Part shown: positions 17,720-40,029 of the stretch, one piece after another
Layout: each line of letters opens with the position of its first letter
How positions within the stretch are numbered: position 1 is the first letter of the stretch
From: an uncultured Candidatus Saccharibacteria bacterium
GTDB taxonomy: Bacteria > Patescibacteriota > Minisyncoccia > Minisyncoccales > 2-12-FULL-40-12
Assembly: GCA_964372865.1 (NCBI GenBank)
Contig: CAYJRW010000001.1
Span: 1-44,077 of the forward strand
Direction: 5' to 3'
DNA: 44,077 nucleotides
Notes under the pieces: generated by a model
What the model was told of the DNA's origin: nothing
What the model saw: the letters and a program-made list of their open reading frames with translations, nothing else
The model's database searches: none
Made by a program: the position numbers and the translations under genes

Positions 17720-17723
17720 AGAT

Positions 17724-17837: not shown

Positions 17838-17870
17838 ACTATCTGAATTCCCAGTGGTGGAAAAATAGGA

Positions 17871-17935
17871 GCGGTCGCTGAGGCTTTGGCTCATCTCCCG
17901 CCTCGTTTCGCTTTGCGAAACTCGCTGAGCGACGC
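17871..17935. repeat. GC-rich structured core element, copy 1 (infA-rpmJ spacer); sequence homologue of 34509-34574
   Basis: Plus strand: GCGGTCGC-TGAGGCTTTGGCTCA-TCTCCCGCC-TCGT-TTCGCTTTGCGAA-ACTCGCTGAGCGACGC. It has two internal hairpins and a closing helix GCG(G)TCGC/GCGACGC. It is conspicuously GC-rich against an AT-rich background. Confidence 0.7.
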
Positions 17936-17973
17936 AAGAAACCGAAGGTATCTTGAGCTGGGGTCGGGGGATT

Positions 17974-25452: not shown

Positions 25453-26435
25453 CTCTGTTTTCTCAAATATGCGGCGGCTCTCTCTGGCTCAATGGTGGAA
25501 ATTTCCATTCTGGTTCCTATTTCAAAACCGGCCCAGGCGGATGTCTTTGGCAAAATAGTCCAGTGCCAGTGGTAATAAGGGCATGTCCTGCCGTCGCAAG
25601 GCGCAGTATGAAGATAAAAATTGTAAGCAGGGTCTGCCAAAGCCCTGTAAAGCTTCTTTAAGGCTGTCTGAAGAGCTTCGGCCAGATGCCATTTTTCATT
25701 TTCAGTTATATCTTCAAAATAAACCAAGTGTTTTTTAGGAGAGATAATCATTTCAAAAGCGGCTTTTGAAGCAAAGGGGCAGATAACCAAAAAACCCTCG
25801 TTTTCAAAAACTACTCTTTTTTTGACTTTCCGCTCCCAGCTATTCATTTCGCAATAAATACACTTTCCAGTTTTTAAAAAATATCTCCCGGAATTTGTGA
25901 GGGCTTTTCTTAAATCGGTGTCAACCAGAGGAGTGGTGATGATTTGAGAGTGGGGGTGGGAAATTGAGGCGCCTGCTTCTTTTCCGTGATTGTGAAAAAT
26001 GGAGACATAATGCACGAACTTTTCTTTTATCAACTGCAAGTATCTTTGATGATATGCGTCCATCACTTCTTTTACTTTTGCTGTGGAAAATTGAGCCAGT
26101 GATTTTTTGTGGTCGCGGGTCACCACCACTTCGTGAAAACCTACGGCGTTTATCGTCTGGTAAAATCTGCCTTCAACTCTTTTGTGTAATTCGTCATGAG
26201 GGGTGAAAGCAGGGTATTTGTTTGGCATAACAATGGTATTTGGCAAGACAAGGGTCGGTTTTTCACCTGTACCGAGGTTGCAAAAAGGGCAATCTTTTTT
26301 GGGAATCTCCTCTCTTATCCTTTTTTCTTGTTTGAAGGTTTCGGGACGTCTTGCGCGACCCGTCGCAATAACAACCCAATCTTTGGAAATGAGGTCAAAA
26401 CGAAGCTCTGAAGGAAATTTTATTTTTTTAGTCAT
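25449..26435 (-). CDS. galT: Galactose-1-phosphate uridylyltransferase (HIT superfamily)
   Basis: 328 aa with the CPFC zinc site and HPHSQII. It has a 4 nt overlap with tpiA. Confidence 0.85.
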   Translation of the reverse strand: MTKKIKFPSELRFDLISKDWVVIATGRARRPETFKQEKRIREEIPKKDCPFCNLGTGEKPTLVLPNTIVMPNKYPAFTPHDELHKRVEGRFYQTINAVGFHEVVVTRDHKKSLAQFSTAKVKEVMDAYHQRYLQLIKEKFVHYVSIFHNHGKEAGASISHPHSQIITTPLVDTDLRKALTNSGRYFLKTGKCIYCEMNSWERKVKKRVVFENEGFLVICPFASKAAFEMIISPKKHLVYFEDITENEKWHLAEALQTALKKLYRALADPAYNFYLHTAPCDGRTCPYYHWHWTILPKTSAWAGFEIGTRMEISTIEPERAAAYLRKQR

Positions 26436-26453
26436 ACAGCAAGTTTTAATTTA

Positions 26454-27200
26454 TTAAAACGAAGCTCTTGATGAAACTTTAGCTTCGTCATACTTTTTTT
26501 TAATGAAATTCAGCTTAATCTTGATTAAATCAAGAGCCATTTTAGTCATTGAGTCAAATTGAACCTTGCTGTCTGGGTCATTTTTCCAGTGAACCGGAAT
26601 TTCTTTTATTTTACAGCCAAATTTTTTTCCCAGCAACAGGATTTCCGGGTCAAAAGCGAATTGATTGATTTTGGCTTTCGGAAAAATATCTTGAGCCGCT
26701 TTTGCTGAAAAAGCTTTGAAGCCGCATTGAGTGTCTTGAATTTCCCAAAGGCCAATAATTATTTTTCTATATATTTTGAAAAAAAATCCAACCAATCTTC
26801 TGAACCAGGATTGCCTCGGGTCCAGAACAGCTCCTTTTATGTCTCTTGAACCAATAACTATGTCGTATCCATTTTCAAACTCAGGCCACATTTTTTCAAC
26901 CTGCTCAACTGAAGTTGAATTATCGGCATCGGTAAAAATTCTGAAGTCGCCCTGAGCAGAAAGCATTCCTTCTTTTACAGCATGGCCTTTTCCAAGCCCA
27001 TCAATCTCAATTAATTTCAAATTCTTAATTTCTCTTTGCTTTTCTTTAACAATTTCTCTAGTTCTGTCTTTTGACCCCCCGTCAACAACAATAATTTCTG
27101 ATTCATAAGCCTGCTTTTTTAAATAATTATCAACATCTTCCAAAGTTCTTAGAATCCTCTTTTCCTCATTGTAAGCAGGAATAATGACTGAGAAATGCAT
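26454..27200 (-). CDS. Family 2 glycosyltransferase (polyprenol-phosphate hexosyltransferase-like)
   Basis: 248 aa with SVIIPAYNEE, VVDGGSKDRT, TDADNS and QCGFKAF. Confidence 0.85.
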   Translation of the reverse strand: MHFSVIIPAYNEEKRILRTLEDVDNYLKKQAYESEIIVVDGGSKDRTREIVKEKQREIKNLKLIEIDGLGKGHAVKEGMLSAQGDFRIFTDADNSTSVEQVEKMWPEFENGYDIVIGSRDIKGAVLDPRQSWFRRLVGFFFKIYRKIIIGLWEIQDTQCGFKAFSAKAAQDIFPKAKINQFAFDPEILLLGKKFGCKIKEIPVHWKNDPDSKVQFDSMTKMALDLIKIKLNFIKKKYDEAKVSSRASF

Positions 27201-27205
27201 AAAGA

Positions 27206-27964
27206 TTATCTTAACTCTGTTAAAAGTTTTGGCCCTTCTTTTGTGACGGCTACCATGTTTTCAAAGTGGGCAGAGAGTAAACCGTCAGCAGTAGCAAAAC
27301 AATGGTTGTCTGTTTTTTTTAGTTTCCAGTCCCCTGCCGTTACCATCGGTTCTATGCAAAAAACCATACCTTCTCTGATTTTTTCTCCTGTATGTCTTTT
27401 TCCGTAATTTAATACTTTGGGGTCTTCATGCAGTTCTCTGCCTATGCCATGGCCGCACAAGTCCCTGACCACATTAAATCCCTGACCCTCAACGTATCTT
27501 TGAATTGTGTTGCCAATGTCGCCAAAAGTATTGCCTGCTTTGGCTTTTTTAATGCCCCTTTTTAATGCCTTTTTGGTAATCCTGAGCAATCTTTGAGCTT
27601 CAGCAGAAATTTTACCAACGGGCAGGGTAATTGCCATATCTGTATGGAACCCCTTCCATAAAATTCCTAAATCAAGAGAAACAATGTTGCCTTCTTTTAA
27701 AATTTTGTTTGACGGAACGCAGTGGACAATTTCTTCATTGATAGAGACGCAAACGCAGGAAGGAAACCCCTGATAACCTTTGAAATTGCATTTTGCGCCA
27801 GAAACCGCAATTAGTTCTTCAGCAAAATTCTCCAAATCTTTGGTGGTAAGGCCAGGCCTGACTTTAGAGGCCAGCTCTTTCATAATTCCAGAGAGAATCT
27901 TTCCTCCTTCAGCCATTATCTTAATTTCCTCAGGGGTTTTAATGTTAATCACAACCTCACGCAT
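27206..27964 (-). CDS. map: Type I methionine aminopeptidase
   Basis: 252 aa with VHCVP, SLDLG, GHGIG, FCIEP and the acidic metal ligands. Confidence 0.94.
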   Translation of the reverse strand: MREVVINIKTPEEIKIMAEGGKILSGIMKELASKVRPGLTTKDLENFAEELIAVSGAKCNFKGYQGFPSCVCVSINEEIVHCVPSNKILKEGNIVSLDLGILWKGFHTDMAITLPVGKISAEAQRLLRITKKALKRGIKKAKAGNTFGDIGNTIQRYVEGQGFNVVRDLCGHGIGRELHEDPKVLNYGKRHTGEKIREGMVFCIEPMVTAGDWKLKKTDNHCFATADGLLSAHFENMVAVTKEGPKLLTELR

Positions 27965-27982
27965 AATTCTGCGATGGCTAAA

Positions 27983-28717
27983 TTATATGTAATGTTTGTT
28001 CGGAGGTTTTCGGGGTTTTAGAGTTTTGAGAATGTTTTTGAAAACAATGGCTGGAGGCGGAGAGCCTTTTATCTTCACAACTTTTAACCCTCGTTTTTGA
28101 AAATAATCAATCAAGGGTAATGTTCTTTCTTTGTATTCTCGCAGTCTGACTTTTATTGTCTCTGGGTTGTCAAGACCCTTTCTTTTTACCAATTTTGAGC
28201 CGTCCAAGGGGCACTTTGTCAATTTTGCGTTCTCTTGCGAATATAAAATTGGGTGGCGCATCAGCTCACAAATTCTACGGTGAGAATTTCTGAAAAGTGT
28301 CTCTTTTGGGGTAATTTCAAGCAAAACAACCCTGATGTTTTTTACCCCATACATTTTTTCCAAAAGAGGTATCTCCTTCTCCGCCTCATCGAGAGTTCTT
28401 GGCGAGCCAGCCAAGACAATGCCTTTACCCTCCTTATATAACACCTTGATTCTTTCTTTTAGCAGAAAAGCCACAAAAGGTGGCGACATTAAAAAACCAG
28501 TACTCCATAGCTTTCTTTCATCTTCCAAAAAATATTTTTTCCCTCCAACCTCAACAAATTCGCCTTTTTTGGCTTCTTGAAATGTTTCTTCCAAAAACTT
28601 ACTTGTTTCTAAATAGTGTAGGCCGAGTTTCTCAGCCAACAGGTTTGCTTGACTTCCCTTTCCTGATCCCGGCGGCCCAATAATAATTATCACTTTTTGT
28701 CCACTAGAATGTTTCAT
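27983..28717 (-). CDS. adk: Adenylate kinase (Cys-less lid, basic C-terminal extension)
   Basis: 244 aa with the GPPGSGKGSQ P-loop. The C-terminus is KTLKPRKPPNKHYI. Confidence 0.9.
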   Translation of the reverse strand: MKHSSGQKVIIIIGPPGSGKGSQANLLAEKLGLHYLETSKFLEETFQEAKKGEFVEVGGKKYFLEDERKLWSTGFLMSPPFVAFLLKERIKVLYKEGKGIVLAGSPRTLDEAEKEIPLLEKMYGVKNIRVVLLEITPKETLFRNSHRRICELMRHPILYSQENAKLTKCPLDGSKLVKRKGLDNPETIKVRLREYKERTLPLIDYFQKRGLKVVKIKGSPPPAIVFKNILKTLKPRKPPNKHYI

Positions 28718-29981
28718 ATTCTCTCATCTGCAATTGCGCTTTTACCTGGCGCATTGTTTCCAAAACCACTGAAACGACAATCAGTAAAGATGTCCCGCCT
28801 ATTAAAAACTGAAACACTTGCACTCCAGTAATTCCTCCGACAAGCGAAGGCATAACTGCAATAATTCCCAGGAATATTGCTCCGACCAGCAAAACCCTGT
28901 TCAAAATAAAATTCATAAAATTTGCCGTTGATTCGCCGGGTCTTATTCCCGGAATAAACCCGCCCATTTTTTGCAAATTGCTGGAGATGGCTTTGGGGTC
29001 AAATGTGACAGCTGTATAAAAATAGGTGAAAAGAACTACTAAAAGAAAAAAGAAAGAGCCGTAAAACCAAGGGTTTTCAAATGCCCTGACCACGTTTCGA
29101 GCGATTGAACCTAAAATCCCGTCGGCCTCCCCCAAAAAATTAGCAAGAAGGGAGGGTAAAAGTATGATTGACAGAGCAAAAATTATTGGAATGACTCCGG
29201 CCGGGTTAACGTTTAGGGGCAGATAAGTTGAAACGCCGCCGTACATTTTCATGCCTCTCACTCTCTTGGCGTAAGAAACGGGAATATTTCGTCTGCCCTC
29301 GTTTATAATCACAACTCCTGCAATAATCACCAGGGCCATGGCAAAAAACAGCAGATAAGTAGGGATCTGAGCCGGATCCCGAGCAACAATCAGCTGCCGG
29401 ATACCTGCTGGAACGCCGGCAACAATACCTGCAAAAATCAGCAAAGAAACGCCGTTGCCGATTCCTTTTTCTGAAATTAATTCCCCAAGCCACATCAAAA
29501 ACACACAGCCGGCTGTAATGGTGATAATTGATACTATGAGCAATTCCGGGGAAAGAGCTGAAATAGCCCCTTGTCTCTGAAGCAAGTTAAGCATCGCGTA
29601 TCCTTGGAGCATGGCAAAAGGAACAGTCAGTATTCTTCCGTATTGATTGAATTTCTGCCTGCCCTGCTCACCTTCTTCTTTGTAAAGCCGGTTTAAGGCG
29701 GGGAAAATCAGGGTCAAAAGCTGCATAATAATCACTCCCGTAATATAGGGACCCAGGCCCAACATAACAATGGAAAGGTTTTCAAGAGTACCGCCTGTAA
29801 AAACATTTAAAAGTCCAAAGAGCTGAAACTGGGCAAAGAAAGCTTGCAGGTCGCCAATATCTATTCCTGGTATGGGAATATTCGCCATTATTCTGAAAAC
29901 GACAAAAACGCCCAAGACAAACAGGATTTTGTTTCGCAGGTCTTTAATCTTGAATATTTGGATGAGTTTTTCTGGCCACAT
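28704..29981 (-). CDS. secY: Protein translocase subunit SecY
   Basis: 425 aa with KDLRNKILFVLGVFVVFRIMANIPIPG and ten hydrophobic segments. Confidence 0.96.
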   Translation of the reverse strand: MWPEKLIQIFKIKDLRNKILFVLGVFVVFRIMANIPIPGIDIGDLQAFFAQFQLFGLLNVFTGGTLENLSIVMLGLGPYITGVIIMQLLTLIFPALNRLYKEEGEQGRQKFNQYGRILTVPFAMLQGYAMLNLLQRQGAISALSPELLIVSIITITAGCVFLMWLGELISEKGIGNGVSLLIFAGIVAGVPAGIRQLIVARDPAQIPTYLLFFAMALVIIAGVVIINEGRRNIPVSYAKRVRGMKMYGGVSTYLPLNVNPAGVIPIIFALSIILLPSLLANFLGEADGILGSIARNVVRAFENPWFYGSFFFLLVVLFTYFYTAVTFDPKAISSNLQKMGGFIPGIRPGESTANFMNFILNRVLLVGAIFLGIIAVMPSLVGGITGVQVFQFLIGGTSLLIVVSVVLETMRQVKAQLQMREYETF

Positions 29982-30192
29982 ACTTTTGCTTCTTTTGCTT
30001 TGCTTTGAATCTGTACCCTCTTAATTTAGGATACCTTTTTATTAATTCCCTGACAATCGGTTTTAATTTTCTGCCTGCTCTGGAACGTTGCCCCTTTTGT
30101 CCCCGGCCAGAATAGGTGCCGCGCTTTCCTCCGCGGCCCACCCTTTTCCTTTTTTTGGATTTATGAATCGGTTTAAGTTCGTGTAATTGCAT
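29944..30192 (-). CDS. rplO: 50S ribosomal protein L15, N-terminal half only (82 aa)
   Basis: The ORF is trimmed to MQLHELKPIHKSKKRKRVGRGGKRGTYSGRGQKGQRSRAG. Its stop lies 38 nt inside secY. Confidence 0.85.
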   Translation of the reverse strand: MQLHELKPIHKSKKRKRVGRGGKRGTYSGRGQKGQRSRAGRKLKPIVRELIKRYPKLRGYRFKAKQKKQKYVARKTHPNIQD

Positions 30193-30200
30193 GTTATTAA

Positions 30201-30228
30201 AATTCGAAGTTTGAATATCGAAATTCGA
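30201..30228. repeat. Heptanucleotide tract AATTCGA-like (4 units) just upstream of the rplO start
   Basis: The plus strand reads aattcga agtttga atatcga aattcga. Confidence 0.7.
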
Positions 30229-30270
30229 AACACAATAAATTTCTATGAATTTCAATAAGTTTCTGAAAGT

Positions 30271-30300
30271 AATAGAAACTATTAGAAACTTGTAGAAACT
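30271..30300. repeat. Three phased 10-nt direct repeats containing TAGAAACT
   Basis: The repeats are aatagaaact attagaaact tgtagaaact. The last unit overlaps the rpsE stop codon. Confidence 0.8.
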
Positions 30301-30796
30301 ATTTGTTTAGGATTTCGGATTTCGTGTTTCGGATTTTAAGGCTCTCTAGAGCCTTGATGGTGGCTCTGGCATTATTCAATTTATTACCTGTTCTGCCCAA
30401 AATTTTAGACGAAATATTTTTTATCCCTGCCAAAGCGCAGATAACTCTAACCGTGCCGCCAGCTTTCAAACCTCTGCCTTTTTTTCTTGGTTTTAACAAC
30501 ACGCGGGCTGAGGAAAATTTTGCCATAACTTCATGGAGAATTGTGCCTTCGACAATGGGAACTTCTGTTAAATTTTTCTTTGCCAAGCGAGTAGCTTTAT
30601 CAATTGCTTGAGCCACATCAAGCCCTTTTGCCACTCCCACGCCAACTTTCCCTGCCTTGTTGCCAACGACAAGTACTGCACGAAATCTAAAACGCCTGCC
30701 GCCAGCAGCAACCCTGGTAACCCGTGCCAAGTCAAGCAGTTTTGATTCAAACTCCTCTTTTGGTTTCTCAAATTTTATTGGTTTTTCTCTTACCAT
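30299..30796 (-). CDS. rpsE: 30S ribosomal protein S5
   Basis: 165 aa: RVTRVAAGGRRFRFRAVLVVGN...GTILHEV...LKPRKKGRGLKAGG. Confidence 0.96.
   Translation of the reverse strand: MVREKPIKFEKPKEEFESKLLDLARVTRVAAGGRRFRFRAVLVVGNKAGKVGVGVAKGLDVAQAIDKATRLAKKNLTEVPIVEGTILHEVMAKFSSARVLLKPRKKGRGLKAGGTVRVICALAGIKNISSKILGRTGNKLNNARATIKALESLKIRNTKSEILNK
30310..30337. repeat. Heptanucleotide tract GGATTTC-like (4 units) in the last codons of rpsE
   Basis: The plus strand reads ggatttc ggatttc gtgtttc ggatttt. It is the inverted counterpart of the tract at 30201-30228. Confidence 0.7.
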
Positions 30797-30800
30797 AAAA

Positions 30801-30879
30801 ATCGATGCTAATATACGAATTGATACTAATGATACTAATATTCGTATAATTCGTATGCATTAGTATATTGGTATCGCGG
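30801..30879 (+). repeat. Miniature TIR-bounded AT-rich repeat element, copy A (79 nt), filling the rplR-rpsE spacer
   Basis: Left end atcgatgctaatatacgaattgat and right end agtatattggtatcgcgg. The 14-nt TIRs cgatgctaatatac and gtatattggtatcg match 12/14. The interior has a 9-nt periodicity (tgatactaa tgatactaa tattcgtat aattcgtat). It is homologous to 34478-34598 in the opposite orientation. Confidence 0.8.
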
Positions 30880-31230
30880 CTAAAATTTAAGTCCTCCTTC
30901 TCTCGCTCCTTCAGCTAAAGCTCTAACCCTTCCGTGGTATTGATAGCCACCTCTGTCAAACACAACTTTTTCAATCTTTTTCTCAAGAGCCTTTTTGGCA
31001 ATTAATTTGCCGACCTCCTTAGCTCTATCTATTTTTTTTTGCCCTTTTTTTCTTTTCAATTCTCTGTCGCTTGCTGAAAGCAAAGTTTTACCCTTCTCAT
31101 CGTCAATCACTTGGGCATAAATGTGGAGGCCTGAGCGAAAAACACCTAGCCGCGGAACTTTGGCGTTGCCGAAAATCTTTGCTCTTACTCTTTTGTGGCG
31201 TCTATATCGTTTTGTTTGGGTTTCTTTCAT
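30880..31230 (-). CDS. rplR: 50S ribosomal protein L18
   Basis: 116 aa: [10 protein letters not shown]...[19 protein letters not shown]...[27 protein letters not shown]. Confidence 0.96.
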
Positions 31231-31247
31231 GCCTGTGTTTTGTGTTT

Positions 31248-31793
31248 TTACTTAGTTGTTGCCACTACTTTTTTCCCGACTTTTCTTCTAATCTGCTCGC
31301 CTAAATACTTGATTCCTTTGCCTTTATAGGGTTCGGGTTTCTTTACTTTTCTTATATTGGCTGCTGTCTGGCCGACCAGTTCTTTGTCTGCTCCAAAAAC
31401 AGTTATAATGTTTTTTTCAACTGAAAATCTGATGCCTTCTGGCGCCTGAAGTTTCACGGGGTGGGAAAAACCAACGTTCAGCAAGATAGAATCACCTTCT
31501 AATAGTGCCTTAAAACCCAAACCCTCTATCTCCAGCTTTTTCTCAAAACCCTCGGTTACTCCCTTTATCATATTCGCCACCAGGACGCGGGTTAAACCCC
31601 AAAGAGAGTTGGTTTTTTTTGTTTCCAACTGAGGCAAAACAAAAATCTCATTATCTTTCACTTCAACTTTAAGCTCTGGCCGAACTTCCCTTGATAATTC
31701 GCCTCTTGGACCATTAATAATTACTTTCTGGCCGTCAATTTTCACTTCAACTCCTTGCGGTATTTCAATTGGTTTTTTACCGACTCTTGACAT
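31248..31793 (-). CDS. rplF: 50S ribosomal protein L6
   Basis: The ORF is trimmed to [15 protein letters not shown] (181 aa). Confidence 0.95.
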
Positions 31794-31797
31794 AAAT

Positions 31798-32187
31798 TTA
31801 CCAAACTTCACATATTATCTCGCCGCCAAGTTTTTGTTTTCTCGCCTCTTTGTCTGTCATTAATCCTTTTGATGTGGAAATTATCGCTACGCCAAACCCA
31901 GATTTCACCGGTTTTATTTCTTTAAATCTTTTGTAAATTCTCTGGCCGGGCTTTGATATTCTTTTTAATCCGGAAATAGCTGGACTTTTATCCTCAGCGT
32001 ACTTTAAGTTAATCCTTATTGCTCTCTTTATCTTTCTTCCCTCTTTCTCAACTTTACCAATAAAACCCTTCTTTTCCATAATTTTGGAAATATCATACTT
32101 TAAACTGGAAAAAGGAATATCAACGGTTTCTTTTCGAACCTGCTGGGCGTTTCTTATTGAAGTTAGCATATCTGCTATTGGGTCCAT
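31798..32187 (-). CDS. rpsH: 30S ribosomal protein S8
   Basis: 129 aa: DPIADMLTSIRNAQ...GGEIICEVW. Confidence 0.96.
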   Translation of the reverse strand: MDPIADMLTSIRNAQQVRKETVDIPFSSLKYDISKIMEKKGFIGKVEKEGRKIKRAIRINLKYAEDKSPAISGLKRISKPGQRIYKRFKEIKPVKSGFGVAIISTSKGLMTDKEARKQKLGGEIICEVW

Positions 32188-32191
32188 AAAT

Positions 32192-32377
32192 TTACCAACT
32201 TGATTTTTTAATTCCGGGTATCAAGCCCTGATTTGCCATTTCCCTGAAGCAAATGCGGCACAACCCGAATTTTCTCATAAAACCGCGTTTTCTGCCGCAG
32301 CGAAAACAACGTCTGACTATGCGACTTTTATATTTTGGTTTCTTTTTTGATTTGGCAATTTGCGCTTTCGTGGCCAT
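32192..32377 (-). CDS. rpsN: 30S ribosomal protein S14 type Z (zinc)
   Basis: The ORF is trimmed to [17 protein letters not shown] (61 aa). The motif is CFRCGR...CRIC. Confidence 0.94.
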
Positions 32378-32378
32378 A

Positions 32379-32933
32379 TTATTTAATAGGGAATCCAATT
32401 AACTTTAGCAACTCTATTCCTTCTTCTCTTTTTTTGGCTGTTGTTACAACTGTCACTTCCAGACCCAAAATATTGCGCATATTTTCAGGCAGAATTTCTG
32501 GGAAAACAATTTGTTCTCTTATGCCAACATTTAAATTTCCTTTTTGGTCAAAGGAGGTCCTTTCAATTCCCTGAAAGTCGCGAGACCTGGGCAAAGCAAT
32601 ATATATTAACCGTTCTAAAAAATCGTACATTCTTTTGCCTCTCATGCTGACACGAGCCCCCAAGGACATACCTTTTCTTGTCTTGAATCCTGCAATGGCT
32701 TTTTTAGCAACCATGATTTGTGGTTTTTGTCCGCAAATTAAAGAAACAGCTTCCAAAATCTCTTGATATATTTTTTTCTGCTCTTCTCCGGATTTTCCTG
32801 AAACCAATCTCCCAAAGCTTGTATTCATAACAACTTTTTCAATTTTAGGCACAGCCATCTGATTTTTATAGCCAAATCTCTTCACCATTTCAGGTACAAC
32901 CTCTTTTTCATATTTATCTCGTAATCTTAACAT
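32379..32933 (-). CDS. rplE: 50S ribosomal protein L5
   Basis: 184 aa with [15 protein letters not shown] and [29 protein letters not shown]. Confidence 0.96.
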
Positions 32934-32944
32934 AGAAATTCAAA

Positions 32945-32979
32945 CATTTTGCATTTTGAGATTTGAATTTTTCATTTGT
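32945..32979. repeat. Heptanucleotide tract CATTTTG-like (5 units) in the rplX-rplE spacer
   Basis: The plus strand reads cattttg cattttg agatttg aattttt catttgt. An inverted pair aaattcaaa/tttgaattt overlaps it. Confidence 0.7.
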
Positions 32980-32980
32980 A

Positions 32981-33286
32981 TCATATTTCTCCTCCGCATT
33001 CCTTACATATTCTATATTTTTTCTCTTCAGTAATTTTATACCCTACCCTTGTTGCTTTGCCGCATTTTGGACAAACGAGTTTCACGTTAGAAACAGACAG
33101 CGGAACAGGAAGTGTAATGGTCTGGCCTTTTTCGCCTGCTTTTTTAGGCCTTCTGTGTTTTTTTCTTAAATTGACGTTCTCAACCAAAACTTCTCTTTCT
33201 TTTGGAAAAGCCCTTAGCACCTTGCCAGTCCTGCCCCTGTCTTTCCCGGAAATTATTAACACCGTGTCGTCTTTCCGTATTTTCAT
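32981..33286 (-). CDS. rplX: 50S ribosomal protein L24 with a C-terminal CxxC...CxxC motif
   Basis: 101 aa with the KOW motif [23 protein letters not shown]. The C-terminus is [30 protein letters not shown]. Confidence 0.94.
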
Positions 33287-33654
33287 AGTATTTCTTCCGC
33301 CAAGGCAGCGACTTTGTCAAAGCCCTTTTCTTTTACTTCTCTTGCCATAGGCCCCAAAATTCTGCCGCCTTTTGGGTCTTTGGTTTTACCTTCTAAAATT
33401 ACGCAGGCATTATCGTCAAACCTGAGATAAGAGCCGTCTCCCCTCCTCAATTCTTTTTTCTGCCTTATCACTACTGCCCTGACCACATCATGTTTTTTAA
33501 CCAATTTTCTGGGATCTGCCGCTTTTACCGTACCCACAATAACATCGCCAAGCCGGGCATATCTTCGCTTTGAACCGCCCAAAACCCTAAAACACTGCAG
33601 GATTTTAGCGCCTGTATTATCCGCTACCTTTAACATTGTCCTTGGTTGAATCAT
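33283..33654 (-). CDS. rplN: 50S ribosomal protein L14
   Basis: 123 aa: [17 protein letters not shown]. Confidence 0.97.
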
Positions 33655-33884
33655 GTTTTTTTAATGACTATCCATCGCTTGTCTTTACTTATCGGTCTGC
33701 TTTCCTCAATTATCACTTTATCACCAGTTTTATATTCTCCCTTTTCATCGTGGGCTTTGTATTTTTTGTGGATTTTGTATCTCCTTTTATACTTTGGATG
33801 TTCTTTCAATCTTTCAACTTCAACCACGACTGTCTTTGCCATTTTGTTTGATACAACTTGGCCCGTTAATCGTCTTTTAGGCAT
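33651..33884 (-). CDS. rpsQ: 30S ribosomal protein S17
   Basis: 77 aa: [29 protein letters not shown]. Confidence 0.95.
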
Positions 33885-34065
33885 GTTTTTTTGTTAGTAA
33901 GGTTAATATTTGGGCGATTTCTCTTTTCGTTTTCCTGATTTCTCTGACATTTTTTATTTTACCAGAAGACAAATCAAACCTTAGTTGACGAAGCCTTTCA
34001 CGCCCTTCCGCTAAAATTTTTTGCAGCTCCGTTTTTGATTTTTGGCGTATTTCGGATAACCTCAT
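33877..34065 (-). CDS. rpmC: 50S ribosomal protein L29
   Basis: 62 aa: [42 protein letters not shown]. Confidence 0.93.
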
Positions 34066-34069
34066 AAAT

Positions 34070-34474
34070 CTATCTTCTGATAAATTTTGTTTGAACCGGC
34101 AATTTTGCTGCTGCCTTTTTAAAGGCCTCCCTTGCTTGTTCTTCAGGTATCCCCTCTAATTCAAAAATAATCCGCCCAGGTTTTATGGGGAAAACGTAAT
34201 GCGAAACAGAGCCTTTGCCCCCGCCCATTGGCACTTCTGTTCCTTTTTTCGTCACCGGTTTGTCGGGGAAAATTCTCACCCAGAGCTTTCCGCCCTTTTT
34301 TAAGTACCGGATAACTGCCCTTCTTGACGCTTCAATTTGTCTTGCAGTCAGCCATTTTGTTCCAAGGGCTTTTAACCCAAAAGCGCCAAAAGACAGCCCT
34401 GTTGAGCGCGTCTCAATGCCTCTTGACCTGCCTTTCCTCCATTTGCGATGTTTTACTTTTTTAGGAATTAACAT
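34070..34474 (-). CDS. rplP: 50S ribosomal protein L16
   Basis: 134 aa: [16 protein letters not shown]...[32 protein letters not shown]. Confidence 0.97.
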
Positions 34475-34477
34475 AAA

Positions 34478-34598
34478 CCGCGATACTAATATACTAATTA
34501 TACAAATACTCGCAGTATTAGCGAGCCCGCCAACTGGCGGACGAGCGGGAGAAGAGATTTATCTCTGCGACCGCATCAATTCATATATTGGCATCGAT
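34478..34598 (-). repeat. Composite repeat element, copy B (121 nt): the same TIR shell as 30801-30879 in inverted orientation, carrying GC-rich core copy 2 (34509-34574)
   Basis: The minus strand reads atcgatgccaatatatgaattgat (22/24 to the copy A left end) and ends agtatattagtatcgcgg (17/18 to the copy A right end). The interior is GCGGTCGC-AGAGATAAATCTCT-TCTCCCGC-TCGT-CCGCCAGTTGGCGG-GCTCGCTAATACTGCGAG. It fills the rpsC-rplP spacer. Confidence 0.8.
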
Positions 34599-35281
34599 TA
34601 GTCTAACCGTTCGCCTTTGTAAATCCACACCTTTACTCCAACTACTCCGTAAGTACAGTAGGCCTCTACCTGAGCATAATCAATATCTGAGCGAAGGGTT
34701 TGCCGAGGCAGCCGCCCTTTTTTTAACCACTCACGCCTGGCAATTTCATTTCCACCCAAACGGCCTGCCACTTCAACCCTGCAGCCCTGGACTCCTTTTT
34801 GTGCCATAATCTTATCTATAATTTGTTTCAAGACCCTTCTGTAATGAATTCTTTTTTCTATTTGTTGGGCAACCCATTGGGCAGAGAGCGTAGCCGACAC
34901 CCAGGGATTTTTAACTTCCCTGATTTCAATCCGGATTTCTTTTGCCACGGCACGAGAAGAGACGCGAGATGAGGCAGGGGCTTTAACTGACTTGTCAGCT
35001 GTCAAAGTATTTTCCAGTGCCTTTTTTAGCTCTTCCACTCCCTGCCCTCCTCGGCCAATGATTAAACCCGGCCTTGCACTTGAAATTATGATATTGATTT
35101 TACCCGGGAATCTTTCTATTTCAATTTTCTCTATGCCAATTTTACCCAATTTCTTTTTTAAAAACTCTCTGATTCTAAAATCCTCCTCCAGATTTTGGGC
35201 AAACTTTTTGTCAACCCAGCGCGAATTCCAATCAGACAACTCTTTTGTTCTAAAAATTTTTGGGTGAACTCTGTGTGACAT
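34598..35281 (-). CDS. rpsC: 30S ribosomal protein S3
   Basis: 227 aa with the KH and S3-C motifs GLIIGRGGQGVEELKK and VAGRLGGNEIARREW. Confidence 0.96.
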   Translation of the reverse strand: MSHRVHPKIFRTKELSDWNSRWVDKKFAQNLEEDFRIREFLKKKLGKIGIEKIEIERFPGKINIIISSARPGLIIGRGGQGVEELKKALENTLTADKSVKAPASSRVSSRAVAKEIRIEIREVKNPWVSATLSAQWVAQQIEKRIHYRRVLKQIIDKIMAQKGVQGCRVEVAGRLGGNEIARREWLKKGRLPRQTLRSDIDYAQVEAYCTYGVVGVKVWIYKGERLD

Positions 35282-35305
35282 AATCGCTTTGCTTAAATTA
35301 AAAAT

Positions 35306-35800
35306 TTAGAATGCTTTTCTTCTGAAAACTCTCTTTATTCCCTTTCCAAACTTCGGCCTGGTGACTTCTTTTTCTTCTGGTTTTACTCTCTGTTTTTTTA
35401 TTTTAGTTGATTCTTTTATTTCCATGGTTTTCTTTTCAATTCTTTTTCTTTTTTCAACTTTTGTCGGTTTAATAGCGTCGAGGACCAAATTGATATGGGA
35501 AGTTTTTTTCTGAATTTCGGAAGCAGAGCCGCGAGCTCTTGGCATCCAACGTTTTAATTTTGGCCCCTCGTCAACCGTAATTCTGGAAATATAGAGATTT
35601 GAATCCTCCAGATGAAACTGGTTTTCGGCATTGGATAATGCTGACTTCAATAATTTTTGCAAAGCAGGGGCTGCTTTTTTGGTTGTAAAAGCCAAAATAT
35701 TCTGGGCCTCTTTGACCTTTTTACCCCTTATCAGGTCAGCGACTAGCCTGACTTTTCTTGGCGCTATTCTTAAATAATTTAATTTAGCTGTTACTGGCAT
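35306..35800 (-). CDS. rplV: 50S ribosomal protein L22 with a Lys-rich C-terminal extension
   Basis: The ORF is trimmed to MPVTAKLNYLRIAPRKVRLVADLIRGK (164 aa). The start lies 1 nt after the rpsS stop. Confidence 0.93.
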   Translation of the reverse strand: MPVTAKLNYLRIAPRKVRLVADLIRGKKVKEAQNILAFTTKKAAPALQKLLKSALSNAENQFHLEDSNLYISRITVDEGPKLKRWMPRARGSASEIQKKTSHINLVLDAIKPTKVEKRKRIEKKTMEIKESTKIKKQRVKPEEKEVTRPKFGKGIKRVFRRKAF

Positions 35801-35801
35801 A

Positions 35802-36119
35802 CTATTGAGCTTGTTCTTCTGTTTTCTCTGCTTCTTTTTCTGCTCCCTTTTGTTCCAGTTCTCTTTGCATTTTTCCTCCGTGTCTGAAAAACTTTGTGGT
35901 CGGGGAAAACTCTCCCAAGCGGTGGCCCACCATTTCTTCTGTTGCTTTAACCTGGATGAATTCTTTGCCGTTGTGAACTCCAAAAACAAACCCGACCATT
36001 TCTGGAGTTATGGTGGCTGCTCTTGACCAGGTTTTAATAATTTCACCAGGTTTTGCTCTCTTTATCTTCTCTAATAATCTTTCGTCTATATATGGGCCTT
36101 TTTTTAAACTTCTTGCCAT
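35802..36119 (-). CDS. rpsS: 30S ribosomal protein S19 (with a C-terminal acidic/basic tail)
   Basis: 105 aa: [12 protein letters not shown]...[29 protein letters not shown]. Confidence 0.96.
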
Positions 36120-36893
36120 TTATTTTCTTCTTTTTATTATGTATTTATCCGTCCATTTTCTGCTTCTTGTTTTCACGCCTAAGGCATGTTTGCCCCAGGG
36201 CGTTTTAGGATATTTCAAGCCAATGGGAGCCTTACCTTCACCCCCGCCGTGAGGATGTGCCGCCGGAATCATTGCTTTGCCGCGCACCTCTGGCCTGCGG
36301 CCTTTCAGCCGCTGCAAGCCGGCTTTCCCAACTTTTTCAAATCTCCTTTCAGGGTGTGATACCTGACCTATTGAAGCAAAGCACTCCTGAGAAACCTTTC
36401 TGCTTTCTCTGGAAGGCATTTCCAAAGAAATCAGTTTACCCTCCTTAGCCAAGACCTTGGCTGCAGTTCCTGCCCCCCTTGTCATTTGTCCGCCTTTGCC
36501 CGGCATAATTTCAATATTATAAACCATTGTCCCGACAGGGATATTTTTTAACTTCATTCTGTTGCCGAGCTTAATATCCGTTTTTTCCTGACAAACAATT
36601 TCGTCGCCAACTTTTATTCCATGAGGGGCTATTTGATAACACTTTTGGCCGTCTGAATACTCCAAAAGCATCAGGAAAGCCGTTCTGTTGGGGTCATATT
36701 CCAAGGCAATGACTTTTGCTATTTTACCCAATTTCTCCTGCCCGAAATCAACCAGGCGGTAAAGCCGCTTTGCCCCTCCTCCCCTATGACGAACGGTAAT
36801 TCTTCCGCCCGACCCTCTGCCAGCTCTTTTTGGCAAATACATGAGTAATCTTTTTTCCGGTTCTTTTTTTGCAAGTAAAGGATATTTTGCCAT
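36120..36893 (-). CDS. rplB: 50S ribosomal protein L2 (shortened N-terminus)
   Basis: 257 aa with GRITVRHRGGGAKRLYRLVDF and HPHGGGEGK. Confidence 0.96.
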   Translation of the reverse strand: MAKYPLLAKKEPEKRLLMYLPKRAGRGSGGRITVRHRGGGAKRLYRLVDFGQEKLGKIAKVIALEYDPNRTAFLMLLEYSDGQKCYQIAPHGIKVGDEIVCQEKTDIKLGNRMKLKNIPVGTMVYNIEIMPGKGGQMTRGAGTAAKVLAKEGKLISLEMPSRESRKVSQECFASIGQVSHPERRFEKVGKAGLQRLKGRRPEVRGKAMIPAAHPHGGGEGKAPIGLKYPKTPWGKHALGVKTRSRKWTDKYIIKRRK

Positions 36894-36895
36894 AA

Positions 36896-37294
36896 TTATC
36901 TGGGTAATAACTCGATTTTCTGCCCTTCTTTTATTTTCACAATTGCTTTTTTATATCCCTTTCTCCAACCTAAAATTCGGCCTTGCCGCCTCTTCTTTTT
37001 ATGGGCTTTGATGATTTTAACACCCAAAACGTCAACGCCGTACAAATCCTCAACAGCTTTCTTTACCTTAGTTTTATTTGCTTTTGGCATAATCTTAAAA
37101 GCGTATTGATTTTGTTTTGCAAGGTCCGTTGCTTTTTCCGTAATCTGGGGCGACTTTAACACTTCCCACGCCTGTCCCGCTCTTTTCTTTTTGGTCATAT
37201 CAGGTTTAACTTCTGTTTTAAGCTCCCTTTCTTTTTGTGAGCTTTCGGCTTTTTCCTTTTTTGGTTTTCTTTTGAAAATATTTAAAATTGCCAT
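36896..37294 (-). CDS. rplW: 50S ribosomal protein L23 with a Lys-rich N-terminal extension of about 45 aa
   Basis: 132 aa. LKSPQITEKATDLAKQNQYAFKI...VKKAVEDLYGVDV is the L23 core. Confidence 0.92.
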   Translation of the reverse strand: MAILNIFKRKPKKEKAESSQKERELKTEVKPDMTKKKRAGQAWEVLKSPQITEKATDLAKQNQYAFKIMPKANKTKVKKAVEDLYGVDVLGVKIIKAHKKKRRQGRILGWRKGYKKAIVKIKEGQKIELLPR

Positions 37295-37295
37295 A

Positions 37296-37940
37296 TTACT
37301 TCAGAAATGTTTCCTTGATAATTTTTATTGAATCTTTTGGCATTATCAGATACTTAAAAGAAAGCAAATCAAGCGCATTCAGGTCTTTTGCTTGAATGGT
37401 TTTAGCTAAAGCTAAATTTCTGGCTGCCAGAATTATATTTTTGTCGTATTCTGGCAAAGCGATTAAGAAGCTTTCCCCTTTAAAATTTTTGACTTTCAAT
37501 TTCCAATTTTCAATTAATTCAGCGAATGGTTTTGTTTTTGGCTTTTCCAACTTTACTTTATCAAACACTATCAGCAAATTATTTTTGGCTTTGGCAGATA
37601 AAACCATAAAAATTGCCTTTCTTCTCATTTTCTTTACAATAACTTTTTTAAAGACCTTTTCTTTTGTCGGCCCGAAAGTGACTCCCCCTCCCCGCCATAA
37701 AGGCGAACGAATGCTACCTACCCTGGCGCGGCCGGTTCCTTTTTGACGCCATGGCTTTTTACCCCCGCCTCTGACCTCTCCCCTTCCTTTCGTATGCGCA
37801 ATTACCTTTCTGCGATTGGCCGTTTGCGACACAACAACCTGATGAAGCAGATCAGGGTTCATCTTAACTTCAAAAATTTCCTTTGGCAAAATGGCTGTCC
37901 CTACTTCTTTGCCTTCTTGGTTGTAAACGATAGCTTTCAT
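37296..37940 (-). CDS. rplD: 50S ribosomal protein L4
   Basis: 214 aa: RGEVRGGGKKPWRQKGTGRARVGSIRSPLWRGGGVTFGP. Confidence 0.96.
   Translation of the reverse strand: MKAIVYNQEGKEVGTAILPKEIFEVKMNPDLLHQVVVSQTANRRKVIAHTKGRGEVRGGGKKPWRQKGTGRARVGSIRSPLWRGGGVTFGPTKEKVFKKVIVKKMRRKAIFMVLSAKAKNNLLIVFDKVKLEKPKTKPFAELIENWKLKVKNFKGESFLIALPEYDKNIILAARNLALAKTIQAKDLNALDLLSFKYLIMPKDSIKIIKETFLK
37497..37517. repeat. Heptanucleotide tract CAATTTC-like (3 units) inside rplD, sharing a 19-nt identical string with the secA tract
   Basis: The units are caatttc caatttt caattaa. The string caatttccaattttcaatt (37497-37515) is identical to 7625-7643. Confidence 0.8.
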
Positions 37941-37946
37941 AATTTT

Positions 37947-38375
37947 TTATCCTCGTATTTCCAATAACGTTCCTTTCCTCCCAGGAACAGCTCCCTTCAA
38001 GGCAATTAAATTGTTCTCTGTATCTACTTTTACGACTTTTAAATTTCTAACGGTTACTCTGCGGTTTCCCATGCGGCCTGGCATCTTTCTGCCTTTAATA
38101 ACTCTCTCGGGAAAAGACGTGCCCACAGAACCAGGAGTTCTTAATTCGTGTTTGGTTCCGTGGGTTGCGCTTCTGCCTGCAAATCCCCATCTTTTGACCA
38201 CCCCTTGAAAACCCTTGCCCTTGGAAAGCCCCGAAACCTTGACTTTGTCGCCTTCTTTGAATAACGAAGTGTCGTTTTTTTCTCCGGCCGTTCCAATCAA
38301 AGTTACCGGAACAGCATTTCCTTTTTCGTCAAAAATCTGCGTCATACCAAGTTTTGCTCCTGAAACGCTTTTCAT
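37947..38375 (-). CDS. rplC: 50S ribosomal protein L3, internally shortened (142 aa)
   Basis: The start is taken at MKSVSGAKLGMTQIF (alternative ATG at 38414). Motifs are SKGKGFQGVVKRWGF and GRMGNRRVTVRNLKVVKVD. Confidence 0.9.
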   Translation of the reverse strand: MKSVSGAKLGMTQIFDEKGNAVPVTLIGTAGEKNDTSLFKEGDKVKVSGLSKGKGFQGVVKRWGFAGRSATHGTKHELRTPGSVGTSFPERVIKGRKMPGRMGNRRVTVRNLKVVKVDTENNLIALKGAVPGRKGTLLEIRG

Positions 38376-38434
38376 GGTCTGTAAATTAAAAACTGGGCCA
38401 AGCCCAGCCTTCAAAGATTTAACACGTTATTCTA

Positions 38435-38776
38435 CTACATCTTTATTTCAATATCTACTCCGGCTGGCAAGGTTAAACTCATTAAGGCGTCAATTACTTT
38501 TGGGTTGGGGTCTATAACGTCAATTAGTCGCTTGTGAGTTCTCATTTCAAACTGCTCTCTGGCGTCTTTGTGTATGAAAGAAGAGCGGTTCACGGTGTAT
38601 TTGCTAATTTCCGTGGGCAAAGGCACAGGGCCGAGAACTTCTGCCCCGTGGCGCAAGACAACATCAATAATCTGTTTTGCAGAATTGTCAATAACCTTGT
38701 GGTCAAAAGCCAGCAACTTAATGCGAATTTTGGGCTTAACCGCCTCTTTGACTTCAACAACTTTCTTTTTGGCCAT
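38435..38776 (-). CDS. rpsJ: 30S ribosomal protein S10
   Basis: 113 aa: [22 protein letters not shown]...RTHKRLIDV. The ATG overlaps the tuf stop (TAATG). Confidence 0.96.
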
Positions 38777-39975: not shown

Positions 39976-40029
39976 AACTTTGATTATTATTTTATTATGC
40001 TGTTAATTTATCAAACCTTTTTTATTTTG

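What the first reader, a model, noticed from the sequence alone, without database searches (positions are those of the whole stretch)
30801..30879. Miniature TIR-bounded repeat occupies two ribosomal-operon spacers in opposite orientations (copy A here, copy B at 34478-34598)
The ends of copy A match the reverse complement of the copy B ends: 22/24 for atcgatgcYaatataYgaattgat and 17/18 for agtatattRgtatcgcgg. Each copy has 14-nt terminal inverted repeats with consensus CGATRCYAATATAY. Each fills essentially the whole gap between a stop codon and the next start (rplR-rpsE and rpsC-rplP), in an operon that is otherwise packed to 0-20 nt spacers. Opposite orientation plus TIRs is the signature of a MITE- or Correia/ERIC-like non-autonomous element, co-transcribed as a hairpin within r-protein mRNA.
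Basis: seen in the sequence. Interest (0 to 1): 0.65.

Follow-up and report, generated by a model that had tools for sequence, protein, structure and literature searches.

The report
Pan-Patescibacteria palindromic hairpin repeat between genes
The two odd spacers in this ribosomal-protein operon are copies of a small, apparently undescribed palindromic repeat that has spread between genes, and even into ribosomal RNA genes, in many lineages of the ultra-small Patescibacteria (CPR).

Summary
Copy A (30797-30879) and copy B (34475-34597) share 14-nt terminal inverted repeats found nowhere else in the window.

They are not private to this genome. A strict two-arm pattern found more than 118 DNA stretches in about 65 Patescibacteria MAGs, and none in 2.9 million viral contigs.

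**Anatomy.** The element is a quasi-palindrome of 8-nt units: ATRCNAAT about four times, then ATTNGYAT about four times. The commonest form is 74 nt, which is copy A. Copy B is a degenerate member with GC-rich hairpins nested in its apex.

**Context.** Elements sit mostly between co-directional genes, a median of 3 nt after the stop and about 10 nt before the next start. Some lie in 23S rRNA genes.

**Mobility.**
- Other lineages carry the element in different r-protein spacers.
- The orthologous spacers in relatives are often 1-4 nt.
- Two close relatives (90-98% identical flanks) differ by presence or absence at three junctions.

No target-site duplication, transposase or autonomous partner was found, and no Rfam family or paper describes it.

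**Unusual features.** The sequence is nearly invariant across lineages. Seven mirror positions are almost never Watson-Crick.

**Best reading.** It is a trans-mobilised, MITE/REP/IVS-like hairpin repeat co-transcribed with its flanks. RNase processing is plausible but untested.

The parts
30797..30879 (.). Copy A: whole rplR-rpsE spacer (83 nt). It is 3 nt + 74-nt core + 6 nt.
   Evidence: Covariance model R1 scores it 94.9 bits on - and 92.8 on +.
30803..30876 (.). Copy A core: the canonical 74-nt quasi-palindrome, centred on AAT|ATT. It has four forward ATRCNAAT units followed by four inverted ATTNGYAT units.
   Evidence: It is one of 12 elements of exactly 74 nt. L065 differs from it by 1 nt.
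30803..30816 (+). Copy A terminal arm CGATGCTAATATAC
30863..30876 (-). Copy A terminal arm (reverse complement CGATACCAATATAC)
34475..34597 (.). Copy B: whole rpsC-rplP spacer (123 nt)
   Evidence: The spacer is identical in Logan contigs from three runs.
34481..34596 (.). Copy B core (116 nt). It is a degenerate family member: three forward units, one inverted unit, and foreign GC-rich hairpins in the apex.
   Evidence: The model finds no full-length match.
34481..34494 (+). Copy B terminal arm CGATACTAATATAC
34583..34596 (-). Copy B terminal arm (reverse complement CGATGCCAATATAT)
34509..34525 (.). Nested mini-hairpin CTCGCAGTATTAGCGAG inside copy B
34527..34540 (.). Nested palindrome CCGCCAACTGGCGG. 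It belongs to a second dispersed family (TCCGCCAGCTGGCGGA) seen in about 20 other CPR loci.
34545..34573 (.). Nested hairpin GCGGGAGAAGAGATTTATCTCTGCGACCGC. Its core AGAGAT(A/T)3ATCTCT recurs in L109, L125/L126 (there in the L18-S5 spacer), L130 and L140.
30880..31230 (-). rplR (L18), upstream gene of copy A. Its TAG stop lies 3 nt from the core.
30299..30796 (-). rpsE (S5), downstream gene of copy A. Its ATG lies 6 nt from the core.
34598..35281 (-). rpsC (S3), upstream gene of copy B. Its TAA stop lies 1 nt from the core.
34070..34474 (-). rplP (L16), downstream gene of copy B. Its ATG lies 6 nt from the core.

Best explanation
Copies A and B belong to a Patescibacteria-wide family of small, non-coding, quasi-palindromic interspersed repeats. 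Each has about four ATRCNAAT units followed by about four inverted units; the canonical length is 74 nt.

The family has repeatedly been gained at new sites, so it behaves as a non-autonomous mobile element moved in trans by a factor not yet identified.

Copies persist only where a hairpin in the transcript does no harm:
- the few nucleotides between a stop codon and the next start codon in operons;
- rRNA spacers;
- the tip of an rRNA helix.

Inferred, not shown: the element is co-transcribed and folds into an imperfect hairpin of about 35 bp. That hairpin keeps the upstream stop and the downstream start close together at its base. The obligate mismatches limit hairpin or cruciform stability. 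The hairpin may be trimmed by a double-strand-specific RNase, as 23S intervening sequences are.
For: **Shown**
1. It is a dispersed family. The strict two-arm pattern hit more than 118 tiles in about 65 MAGs named Azam-, Jorgensen-, Wolfe-, Sungii-, Yanofsky-, Harrison-, Lipton-, Staskawicz-, Buchanan-, Magasanik-, Doudnabacteria, Paceibacteria and others. Up to 6 tiles came from one MAG. There were no hits in viral contigs.
2. It has a modular anatomy. Forward units always precede inverted units, and FFFFRRRR is the commonest layout (50 of 143 clusters).
3. Its context is consistent. Of 117 elements with both neighbours called, 90 lie between co-directional ORFs. The median distance is 3 nt after the stop and 10.5 nt before the start.
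4. Its positions are not orthologous. In other r-protein operons it sits in S8-L6, S17-L14, S5-L15, L16-L29, L14-L24, L5-S14, L24-L5, L2-S19, L29-S17 and L6-L18.
5. Empty sites exist. The S3-L16 junction reads 'TAA at ATG' or 'TAA t ATG' in five relatives, and L18-S5 is 4-31 nt in many.
6. Gain or loss is recent. L140 carries elements at three junctions where L142 has 4-nt, overlapping and 3-nt junctions. Their flanks are 90-98% identical.
7. Genomes have their own subfamilies with shared loops.
8. It occurs in rRNA operons: the 23S-5S spacer in L010, and the apical loop of 23S helix 44 in L079, L009 and L037.
9. Mirror positions are kept mismatched.

**Inferred**
- RNA-level selection. The sense-strand fold is weaker than the antisense fold in 46 of 68 elements (p = 3e-4).
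Against: - No target-site duplication is visible. The codons next to the insertion also differ between L140 and L142. This fits recombinational import of a junction as well as it fits transposition.
- No transposase, HUH/RAYT-like gene or autonomous version turned up in the sampled flanks.
- Strict-pattern copy number per genome looks low: 3 hits on a 547-kb contig.
- Near-invariance of a 74-nt sequence across deeply diverged lineages is unusual for selfish DNA. It may mean a host function.
- Stems show no compensatory covariation, so hairpin formation in vivo is not demonstrated.
- Ascertainment is biased.
Confidence: 0.72

Rival explanations
1. It is a host-selected RNA processing or regulatory module. 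The hairpin would be a sequence-specific substrate or binding site for a conserved ribonuclease (RNase III, or the NYN-domain nuclease). It would cut or stabilise polycistronic mRNAs and rRNA precursors, and its spread would reflect recruitment of a useful cassette. This does not exclude mobility.
For: - The same element occurs between cistrons, in the 23S-5S spacer and at the tip of a 23S helix.
- It abuts rnc in three lineages: nusB-[E]-rnc in L018 and L076, and rnc-[E]-rpsP in L096.
- It abuts a NYN-domain gene in the rpsO-NYN-pnp cluster in four loci. In E. coli, the rnc leader and the rpsO-pnp spacer are classic RNase III sites (own knowledge).
- Tsurumaki et al. 2024 (PMC11270868) propose that short ORF-less insertions in CPR 23S genes are RNase III-type IVSs.
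- Sequence conservation is extreme, and polarity relative to transcription is about 2:1.
Against: - The rnc/NYN adjacency is not special. Among 150 immediate neighbours, about ten families recur three times, including GroES, HIT, S11, S13 and NusG.
- The element is absent from most relatives' operons: 73 of 80 loci lack it.
- It sits at a different junction in each lineage, which is odd for a required signal.
- There is no compensatory covariation.
- Frequent mismatches might reduce RNase III cleavage.
- No transcript data were available.
Confidence: 0.3
2. It works at the DNA level as an array of eight binding sites (4 + 4 inverted ATRCNAAT boxes) for a sequence-specific DNA-binding protein. 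This could be a transposase with subterminal repeats, a nucleoid protein or a repressor. On this view hairpin formation is irrelevant.
For: - The 8-nt units are invariant and spaced 8-10 nt, about one helical turn.
- Conservation is at the sequence level, with no covariation.
- The variable unit position is restricted to G/T on the unit strand.
- The element scores equally on both strands.
Against: - Binding to duplex DNA gives no reason for mirror units to be kept different. Watson-Crick states are avoided at p7 (10 of 68) and K2 (10 of the 68 counted, 58 of them G/T-A/C combinations).
- Placement is tightly polar with respect to stop and start codons.
- The element occurs inside rRNA helices.
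- The TATAAT boxes it creates show no bias towards the sense direction: 28 versus 22.
Confidence: 0.15
3. It is an ancient conserved regulatory leader specific to rpsE and rplP, in the way that S8 or L4 autoregulatory sites are gene-specific.
For: Only the position within a tightly packed r-protein operon.
Against: - Orthologous spacers in relatives lack it.
- The same sequence flanks unrelated genes in other genomes.
- No Rfam r-protein leader matches.
Confidence: 0.02

Closest known systems
Correia elements (Neisseria) and ERIC/IRU (Enterobacteria): small TIR-bounded or imperfect-palindrome repeats in transcribed intergenic regions
   Same: They are about 70-150 nt, non-coding and bounded by inverted repeats. 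They lie between genes, are co-transcribed and fold as hairpins. Copies occur in both orientations, and insertions are polymorphic between relatives. Correia hairpins are cut by RNase III (own knowledge).
   Different: - No TA or other target duplication is seen.
- There is no similarity to the Correia or ERIC sequences.
- The body is built of 8-nt units.
- The sequence is conserved across many candidate phyla rather than one genus or family.
- Mismatches are obligate at fixed mirror positions.
REP/BIME elements with RAYT (TnpA-REP)
   Same: They are extragenic imperfect palindromes in operon spacers, with mismatches that could mark one strand. They are moved in trans by a single-copy enzyme, and no transposase lies next to the copies.
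   Different: - REPs are 20-40 nt, carry a 5' GTAG, are species-specific and number in the hundreds.
- Here the element is 74 nt or more, begins with CGAT, is pan-lineage and has few copies per genome.
- No RAYT was looked for genome-wide.
23S rRNA intervening sequences (IVS) excised by RNase III
   Same: A palindromic insert sits at the apex of a 23S rRNA hairpin and is sporadically distributed among lineages. Tsurumaki et al. 2024 (PMC11270868) suggest such IVSs exist in the CPR.
   Different: - The ATRCNAAT element sits in the helix 44 loop (E. coli about 1093-1098), not in helix 25 or 45.
- Most copies are in mRNA spacers.
- Excision is untested.
Integron attC sites
   Same: They are imperfect palindromes of 57-141 nt lying between co-directional ORFs, with conserved unpaired positions that matter in the folded single strand.
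   Different: - There are no R''/L''-L'/R' core sites (no GTTRRRY).
- The flanking genes are essential housekeeping genes, not cassettes.
- Sequence, not just structure, is conserved.
- No integrase context is present.

Membership tests
MITE | Terminal inverted repeats bounding a short non-coding body | tested here: met
   14-nt arms. The whole body is a quasi-palindrome. No ORF is present.
MITE | Multiple dispersed copies, with presence/absence polymorphism between relatives | tested here: met
   L140 versus L142 differ at three junctions.
MITE | Target-site duplication flanking the insertion | tested here: not met
   The filled and empty sites of L140 and L142 show no direct duplication, and the adjacent codons are remodelled. 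Flank dinucleotides are CG/AT or extend the palindrome.
MITE | Cognate autonomous IS carrying the same TIRs | tested here: inconclusive
   No arm..ORF..arm structure and no recurrent transposase-like neighbour were found in about 0.84 Mb of flanks. Whole genomes were not searched.
REP/BIME | 20-40-nt imperfect palindrome preceded by a conserved GTAG | tested here: not met
   Elements are 66-119 nt and begin with CGATRC.
REP/BIME | RAYT (Y1 HUH) gene in the same genome | not tested
   Only 8-kb tiles around the elements were available.
Correia element | 26-nt Correia TIR sequence, TA duplication and an IHF site | tested here: not met
   The TIR sequence is different and there is no TA duplication.
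23S rRNA IVS | Insert replacing the apical loop of helix 25 or helix 45 | tested here: not met
   The ATRCNAAT element is in the helix 44 loop of L079. The helix 45 loop there holds a different palindrome.
23S rRNA IVS | Excision by RNase III without religation | not testable with these tools
   Needs transcript ends or biochemistry.
Any Rfam family (r-protein leaders included) | Covariance-model match | tested here: not met
   No hit at gathering score over the window. Nothing relevant at E <= 10 over 30750-34650.
Integron attC | R''-L''...L'-R' core sites (RYYYAAC/GTTRRRY) | tested here: not met
   The ends are CGATRC...GYATCG.

The most novel reading that the evidence does not exclude
The element may be a mobile RNA-processing or recognition cassette shared by mRNAs and rRNA across the Patescibacteria. 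On this reading, its invariant 8-nt units and obligately non-Watson-Crick mirror positions form a recognition code for a conserved CPR protein, such as RNase III, the NYN nuclease, or an unknown hairpin-binding HUH or recombinase enzyme. That protein would both process the transcript and copy the element to new gene junctions. This would also explain why a 74-nt sequence is nearly identical in lineages whose ribosomal proteins are only about 50% identical.
Probability: 0.2. Interest if true: 0.8.

Novelty: new variant of a known kind. Interest (0 to 1): 0.62.

Why it matters
Patescibacteria have tiny, tightly packed genomes and are thought to carry little repetitive DNA. A repeat family shared by many of their candidate phyla shows that small mobile or recruited hairpins shape even their most essential operons. 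It sits exactly between stop and start codons of essential operons and inside 23S rRNA.

The family gives several practical handles:
- a sequence-defined way to study mRNA and rRNA processing in organisms that are mostly uncultured;
- a marker for gene flow among CPR lineages;
- a concrete sequence family for at least some of the many short ORF-less rRNA insertions reported in the CPR;
- a likely cause of contig breaks in CPR assemblies.

The enforced mismatches at fixed mirror positions are an unusual evolutionary signature that calls for a mechanistic explanation.

Tried and rejected
- **Promoter idea.** The unit junction GTAT-A-ATT makes a TATAAT box. It points in the sense direction in 28 elements and antisense in 22, so there is no bias.
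- **Known RNA or tRNA.** Rfam gave nothing at gathering score or at E <= 10, and there are no tRNA or tmRNA genes.
- **Phage vector.** There were no hits in 2.9 million viral contigs.
- **Autonomous partner.** There are only a few solo arms. No arm-ORF-arm structure was found. No recurrent transposase-like neighbour was found.
- **Target-site duplication.** None was found.
- **Global polarity from the stem.** The mismatch directions at p5, p7 and K2-K4 are mutually independent. Only p7, s19, s20 and s29 co-vary weakly. A model of partial inversion within the palindrome fails, because p5 and p7, 2 nt apart, are uncorrelated.
- **RNase III/NYN adjacency.** It looked striking. It is no stronger than the recurrence of GroES, HIT, S11/S13 or NusG neighbours, so it is only a hint.
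- **Helix assignment.** I first assigned the 23S insertion to helix 45, the classic IVS site. Alignment to E. coli 23S showed it is the helix 44 loop.
- **Strain-level polymorphism of this organism.** All Logan contigs with the identical L16 carry the 123-nt spacer, and S5 is not on record. The closest metagenome relative has only 75% L5 identity.
- **Literature.** Six searches, including literal sequence strings, found no description of the family. A seventh found only Tsurumaki et al. 2024.
- **Failed call.** One Rfam call on 11 loci failed internally.

Full report
**1. Observation**

The S10/spc-type ribosomal operon lies on the - strand and is tightly packed. Gaps from rpsJ to secY range from -38 to +47 nt (one further negative value comes from an over-long L22 ORF call). 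The two exceptions are 83 nt between rplR and rpsE (30797-30879) and 123 nt between rpsC and rplP (34475-34597).

The 14-mer CGATRCYAATATAY occurs exactly four times in the 44-kb window, only as the two arms of each spacer. Chance expectation is 0.68 even with two mismatches allowed. A paired-arm pattern matches only these two sites and none of 100 shuffles.

Over wider ends, A(+) matches B(-) at 24/27 and 20/24, against 17/27 and 16/24 for B(+). Independent Logan assemblies carry the same sequences.

**2. Anatomy**

Copy A is a 74-nt quasi-palindrome centred on AAT|ATT. It is built of four 8-nt units ATRCNAAT, spaced 8-10 nt, followed by four inverted units ATTNGYAT.

Copy B keeps both arms, three forward units and one inverted unit. 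Its apex is replaced by three GC-rich mini-hairpins. Two of these belong to other small dispersed palindrome families seen in other CPR loci.

A covariance model built from 41 family members scores copy A at 94.9 bits on one strand and 92.8 on the other. It finds no further copy in the window.

**3. A large family**

I scanned one genome per GTDB species for CGATRCYAATATA, then 38-98 nt, then TATATTRGYATCG.

- The tiles hold 125 non-nested elements and come from about 65 MAGs.
- Every reliably named MAG is Patescibacteria. Named groups include Azam-, Jorgensen-, Wolfe-, Sungii-, Yanofsky-, Harrison-, Lipton-, Staskawicz-, Buchanan-, Magasanik- and Doudnabacteria, and Paceibacteria.
- A few third-party MAGs are labelled Gammaproteobacteria, Bacteroidota or Rikenella. 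Where an r-protein operon is visible (L072), there is no room for L30 between S5 and SecY, as in the CPR. I regard those labels as doubtful.
- Viral contigs gave no hit.

Twelve elements are exactly 74 nt, and L065 differs from copy A at one position. Interior columns were not constrained by the search pattern, yet many are invariant in 41 of 41 sequences. The outer 13 nt of each arm were fixed by the pattern, so their invariance carries no information.

**4. Context**

- Of 117 elements with both neighbours called, 90 lie between co-directional ORFs, 18 between convergent ORFs and 9 between divergent ORFs.
- The stop codon is a median of 3 nt upstream of the element. The next start is a median of 10.5 nt downstream.
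- 'Fills the whole gap' is therefore a family trait, not a peculiarity of this window.
- Immediate neighbours span 166 Pfam families. None is transposase-like among those that recur.
- Recurrent junctions are housekeeping operons: S13-S11-S4-rpoA, fusA/tuf, nusG, groES, a type IV pilus cluster, nusB-rnc-rpsP and rpsO-NYN-pnp.

**5. Mobility**

In other lineages' r-protein operons the element occupies different spacers: S8-L6, S17-L14, S5-L15, L16-L29, L14-L24, L5-S14, L24-L5, L2-S19, L29-S17 and L6-L18.

Among 80 relatives retrieved with L5 (42-75% identity), only 7 loci carry it. None carries it in L18-S5 or S3-L16. Those orthologous spacers are often minimal, for example 'TAA at ATG'. Others hold different palindromes built from other short units.

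The closest comparison is L140 versus L142, whose flanks are 90-98% identical. L140 has a canonical 74-nt element in L2-S19 and two copies of a genome-specific ATGCNAAT subfamily in L29-S17 and L14-L24. L142 has a 4-nt junction, an overlapping junction and a 3-nt junction at those sites.

- No target duplication is seen.
- The last and first two or three codons beside the insertion also differ.
- In L145 the L29 reading frame runs into the element, which supplies seven codons and the stop.
- Within genomes, copies share loop sequences, and the copies whose flanking gene direction could be called have the same orientation relative to transcription.

**6. The mismatch signature**

At mirror positions 5, 7, 15, 19, 20, 29 and 34 of the 74-nt form, the two arms are almost never complementary.

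| Position | Non-Watson-Crick states | Watson-Crick states |
|---|---|---|
| 7 | C·A 39, T·G 19 | C·G 4, T·A 6 |
| 15 | G·A 25, T·C 24 | G·C 9, T·A 1 |

On the 41-sequence alignment, 80.7% of cells are paired, against 87.0% in column shuffles. All 500 shuffles were higher. Seventeen pairs never vary, and compensatory changes are fewer than in shuffles (7 cells versus about 59).

The direction of each mismatch is largely independent of the others. Only positions 7, 19, 20 and 29 co-vary weakly. The stem therefore gives no strong global polarity.

Flank dinucleotides do show polarity relative to transcription: TAA-CG[...]AT-ATG in 15 elements against 3 reversed. Copy A has the majority flank arrangement and copy B the reversed, minority one. 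The sense-strand RNA fold is weaker than the antisense fold in 46 of 68 elements (p = 3e-4, not corrected for relatedness).

**7. rRNA copies**

In L010 the element lies in the 23S-5S spacer.

In L079 the element plus its conserved flanks (149 nt) replaces two nucleotides of the apical loop of the hairpin GCGUAA..GCUCAC; sequence comparison indicates the same arrangement in L009 and L037. Alignment to E. coli 23S places this at helix 44, about nt 1093-1098, in the L11/GTPase-associated region. I had first mis-assigned it to helix 45. In L079 the helix 45 loop, the classic IVS site, carries a different unit-built palindrome.

Tsurumaki et al. 2024 (PMC11270868) catalogued many short ORF-less insertions in CPR 23S genes. 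They suggested RNase III-type IVSs but did not describe this family or its link to mRNA spacers.

**8. Interpretation**

- **Shown:** this is a dispersed, non-coding, quasi-palindromic repeat family that has been gained at many non-orthologous sites, including recently.
- **Inferred:** it is co-transcribed and folds. Only insertions that place the stop and start at the base of the hairpin survive. The mismatches are maintained by selection on the folded single strand, either RNA or DNA.
- **Unknown:** the mobilising activity, and whether the element is cleaved.

The RNase-substrate idea draws on the rRNA locations and on copies next to rnc and in the rpsO-pnp cluster. That adjacency is no more frequent than for several other housekeeping neighbours.

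A pure duplex-DNA binding-site model does not explain the enforced arm differences or the stop/start geometry. A gene-specific leader is refuted.

**9. Comparison and novelty**

The element works like Correia/ERIC, REP/BIME or IVS elements. It fails the defining tests for each: no target duplication or cognate IS, no GTAG, and not helix 25 or 45. It matches no Rfam model.

Six literature searches, including literal sequence strings, found no description; a seventh found only Tsurumaki et al. 2024. I rate it a new variant of a known kind, small palindromic interspersed repeats, with three unusual traits:
- cross-lineage sequence invariance;
- a body built of short units;
- obligate mismatches.

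**10. Caveats**

- ORF calls are heuristic.
- Statistics are not corrected for shared ancestry.
- Taxon labels are as deposited.
- No expression data were available.

Noticed in passing
window 34527-34540; also L007, L014 (inside another ATRCNAAT element), L024, L034, L035, L076, L077, L084, L103, L117, L140, L142, L161, L167: A second dispersed palindrome, TCCGCCAGCTGGCGGA-like, recurs in about 20 CPR loci. Some copies appear to lie inside coding regions: L140 2805 and L142 3074 hold it at the same place in a conserved gene.
   Followed up: partly
window 34545-34573; L125 7935, L126 3067 (L18-S5 spacer), L109 4591, L130 3511, L140 4091 and 6316: The hairpin GAAGAGAT(A/T)3ATCTCTTC, with a CCGC..TCG tail, is another small module shared between copy B and other CPR genomes. 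This suggests that small repeats nest inside one another.
   Followed up: partly
window 30256-30298 and 32934-32975: The next-largest spacers of the operon (rpsE-rplO, 43 nt; rplX-rplE, 42-47 nt) also hold short hairpins: AAGTTTCT..AGAAACTT and AAATTCAAA..TTTGAATTT.
   Followed up: no
L164 S3-L16, L147, L158, L167, L168, L157, L142, L129 spacers; L144 2684-2874: Relatives' r-protein spacers carry other palindromes built from different short tandem units (TACGAAT, TTGTAGT, TCCGAAAT, ATTTCTAA, TTAAAGATTTAAG). L144 has three tandem 59-nt repeats. Unit-built intercistronic palindromes look like a general CPR phenomenon.
   Followed up: partly
L079 about 1770-1960 (23S, Rfam LSU model position 1218, helix 45 loop): A palindrome of about 150 nt, made of TCTAAAT/ATTTAGA-like units, sits in the classic IVS site of the same 23S gene that carries the ATRCNAAT element in its helix 44 loop.
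   Followed up: partly
L079 2020-2099, L009 145-233, L037 4855-4943 and 5542-5630: An insertion in the helix 44 loop of 23S rRNA is unexpected for a functional ribosome. This is the L11/thiostrepton region, next to A1095. In L037 the 147-nt composite (element plus flanks) is duplicated 687 nt apart.
   Followed up: partly
13 loci, e.g. L015 2927, L081 1811, L101 7124, L043 2377, L078 5041: The motif T(A/T)AGCGAAGCG(N0-3)ATG follows the element and runs straight into the start codon of the downstream gene. It contains the GCGAAGC mini-hairpin sequence.
   Followed up: partly
L001 end (4321) and L002 end (2983), both inside copy A: Two independent Logan contigs of this organism terminate within copy A. 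This would be expected if the repeat, or its palindromy, breaks de Bruijn assemblies.
   Followed up: no
window 26000-40000, upstream of each gene: No Shine-Dalgarno-like purine tracts precede the operon's start codons. The upstream 30 nt are A/T-rich.
   Followed up: no
window 17720-17973: A 254-nt stretch with no ORF of 60 aa or more, partly GC-rich and self-complementary, has no Rfam match.
   Followed up: no
window 7612-7657 and 37484-37515: Tandem 7-8-nt units (AATTTCCA/AATTTTCA) recur at two sites 30 kb apart (family D2). The second site lies inside the L4 gene.
   Followed up: no
L005, L011, L019, L029, L035, L055, L065, L071, L072, L075, L080, L089, L098, L114, L115; L007, L084, L107; L009: MAGs deposited as 'uncultured Gammaproteobacteria', 'Bacteroidota' or 'Rikenella microfusus' carry this CPR element. 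L072 has a CPR-style operon with no room for L30. Their labels or binning are probably wrong.
   Followed up: partly
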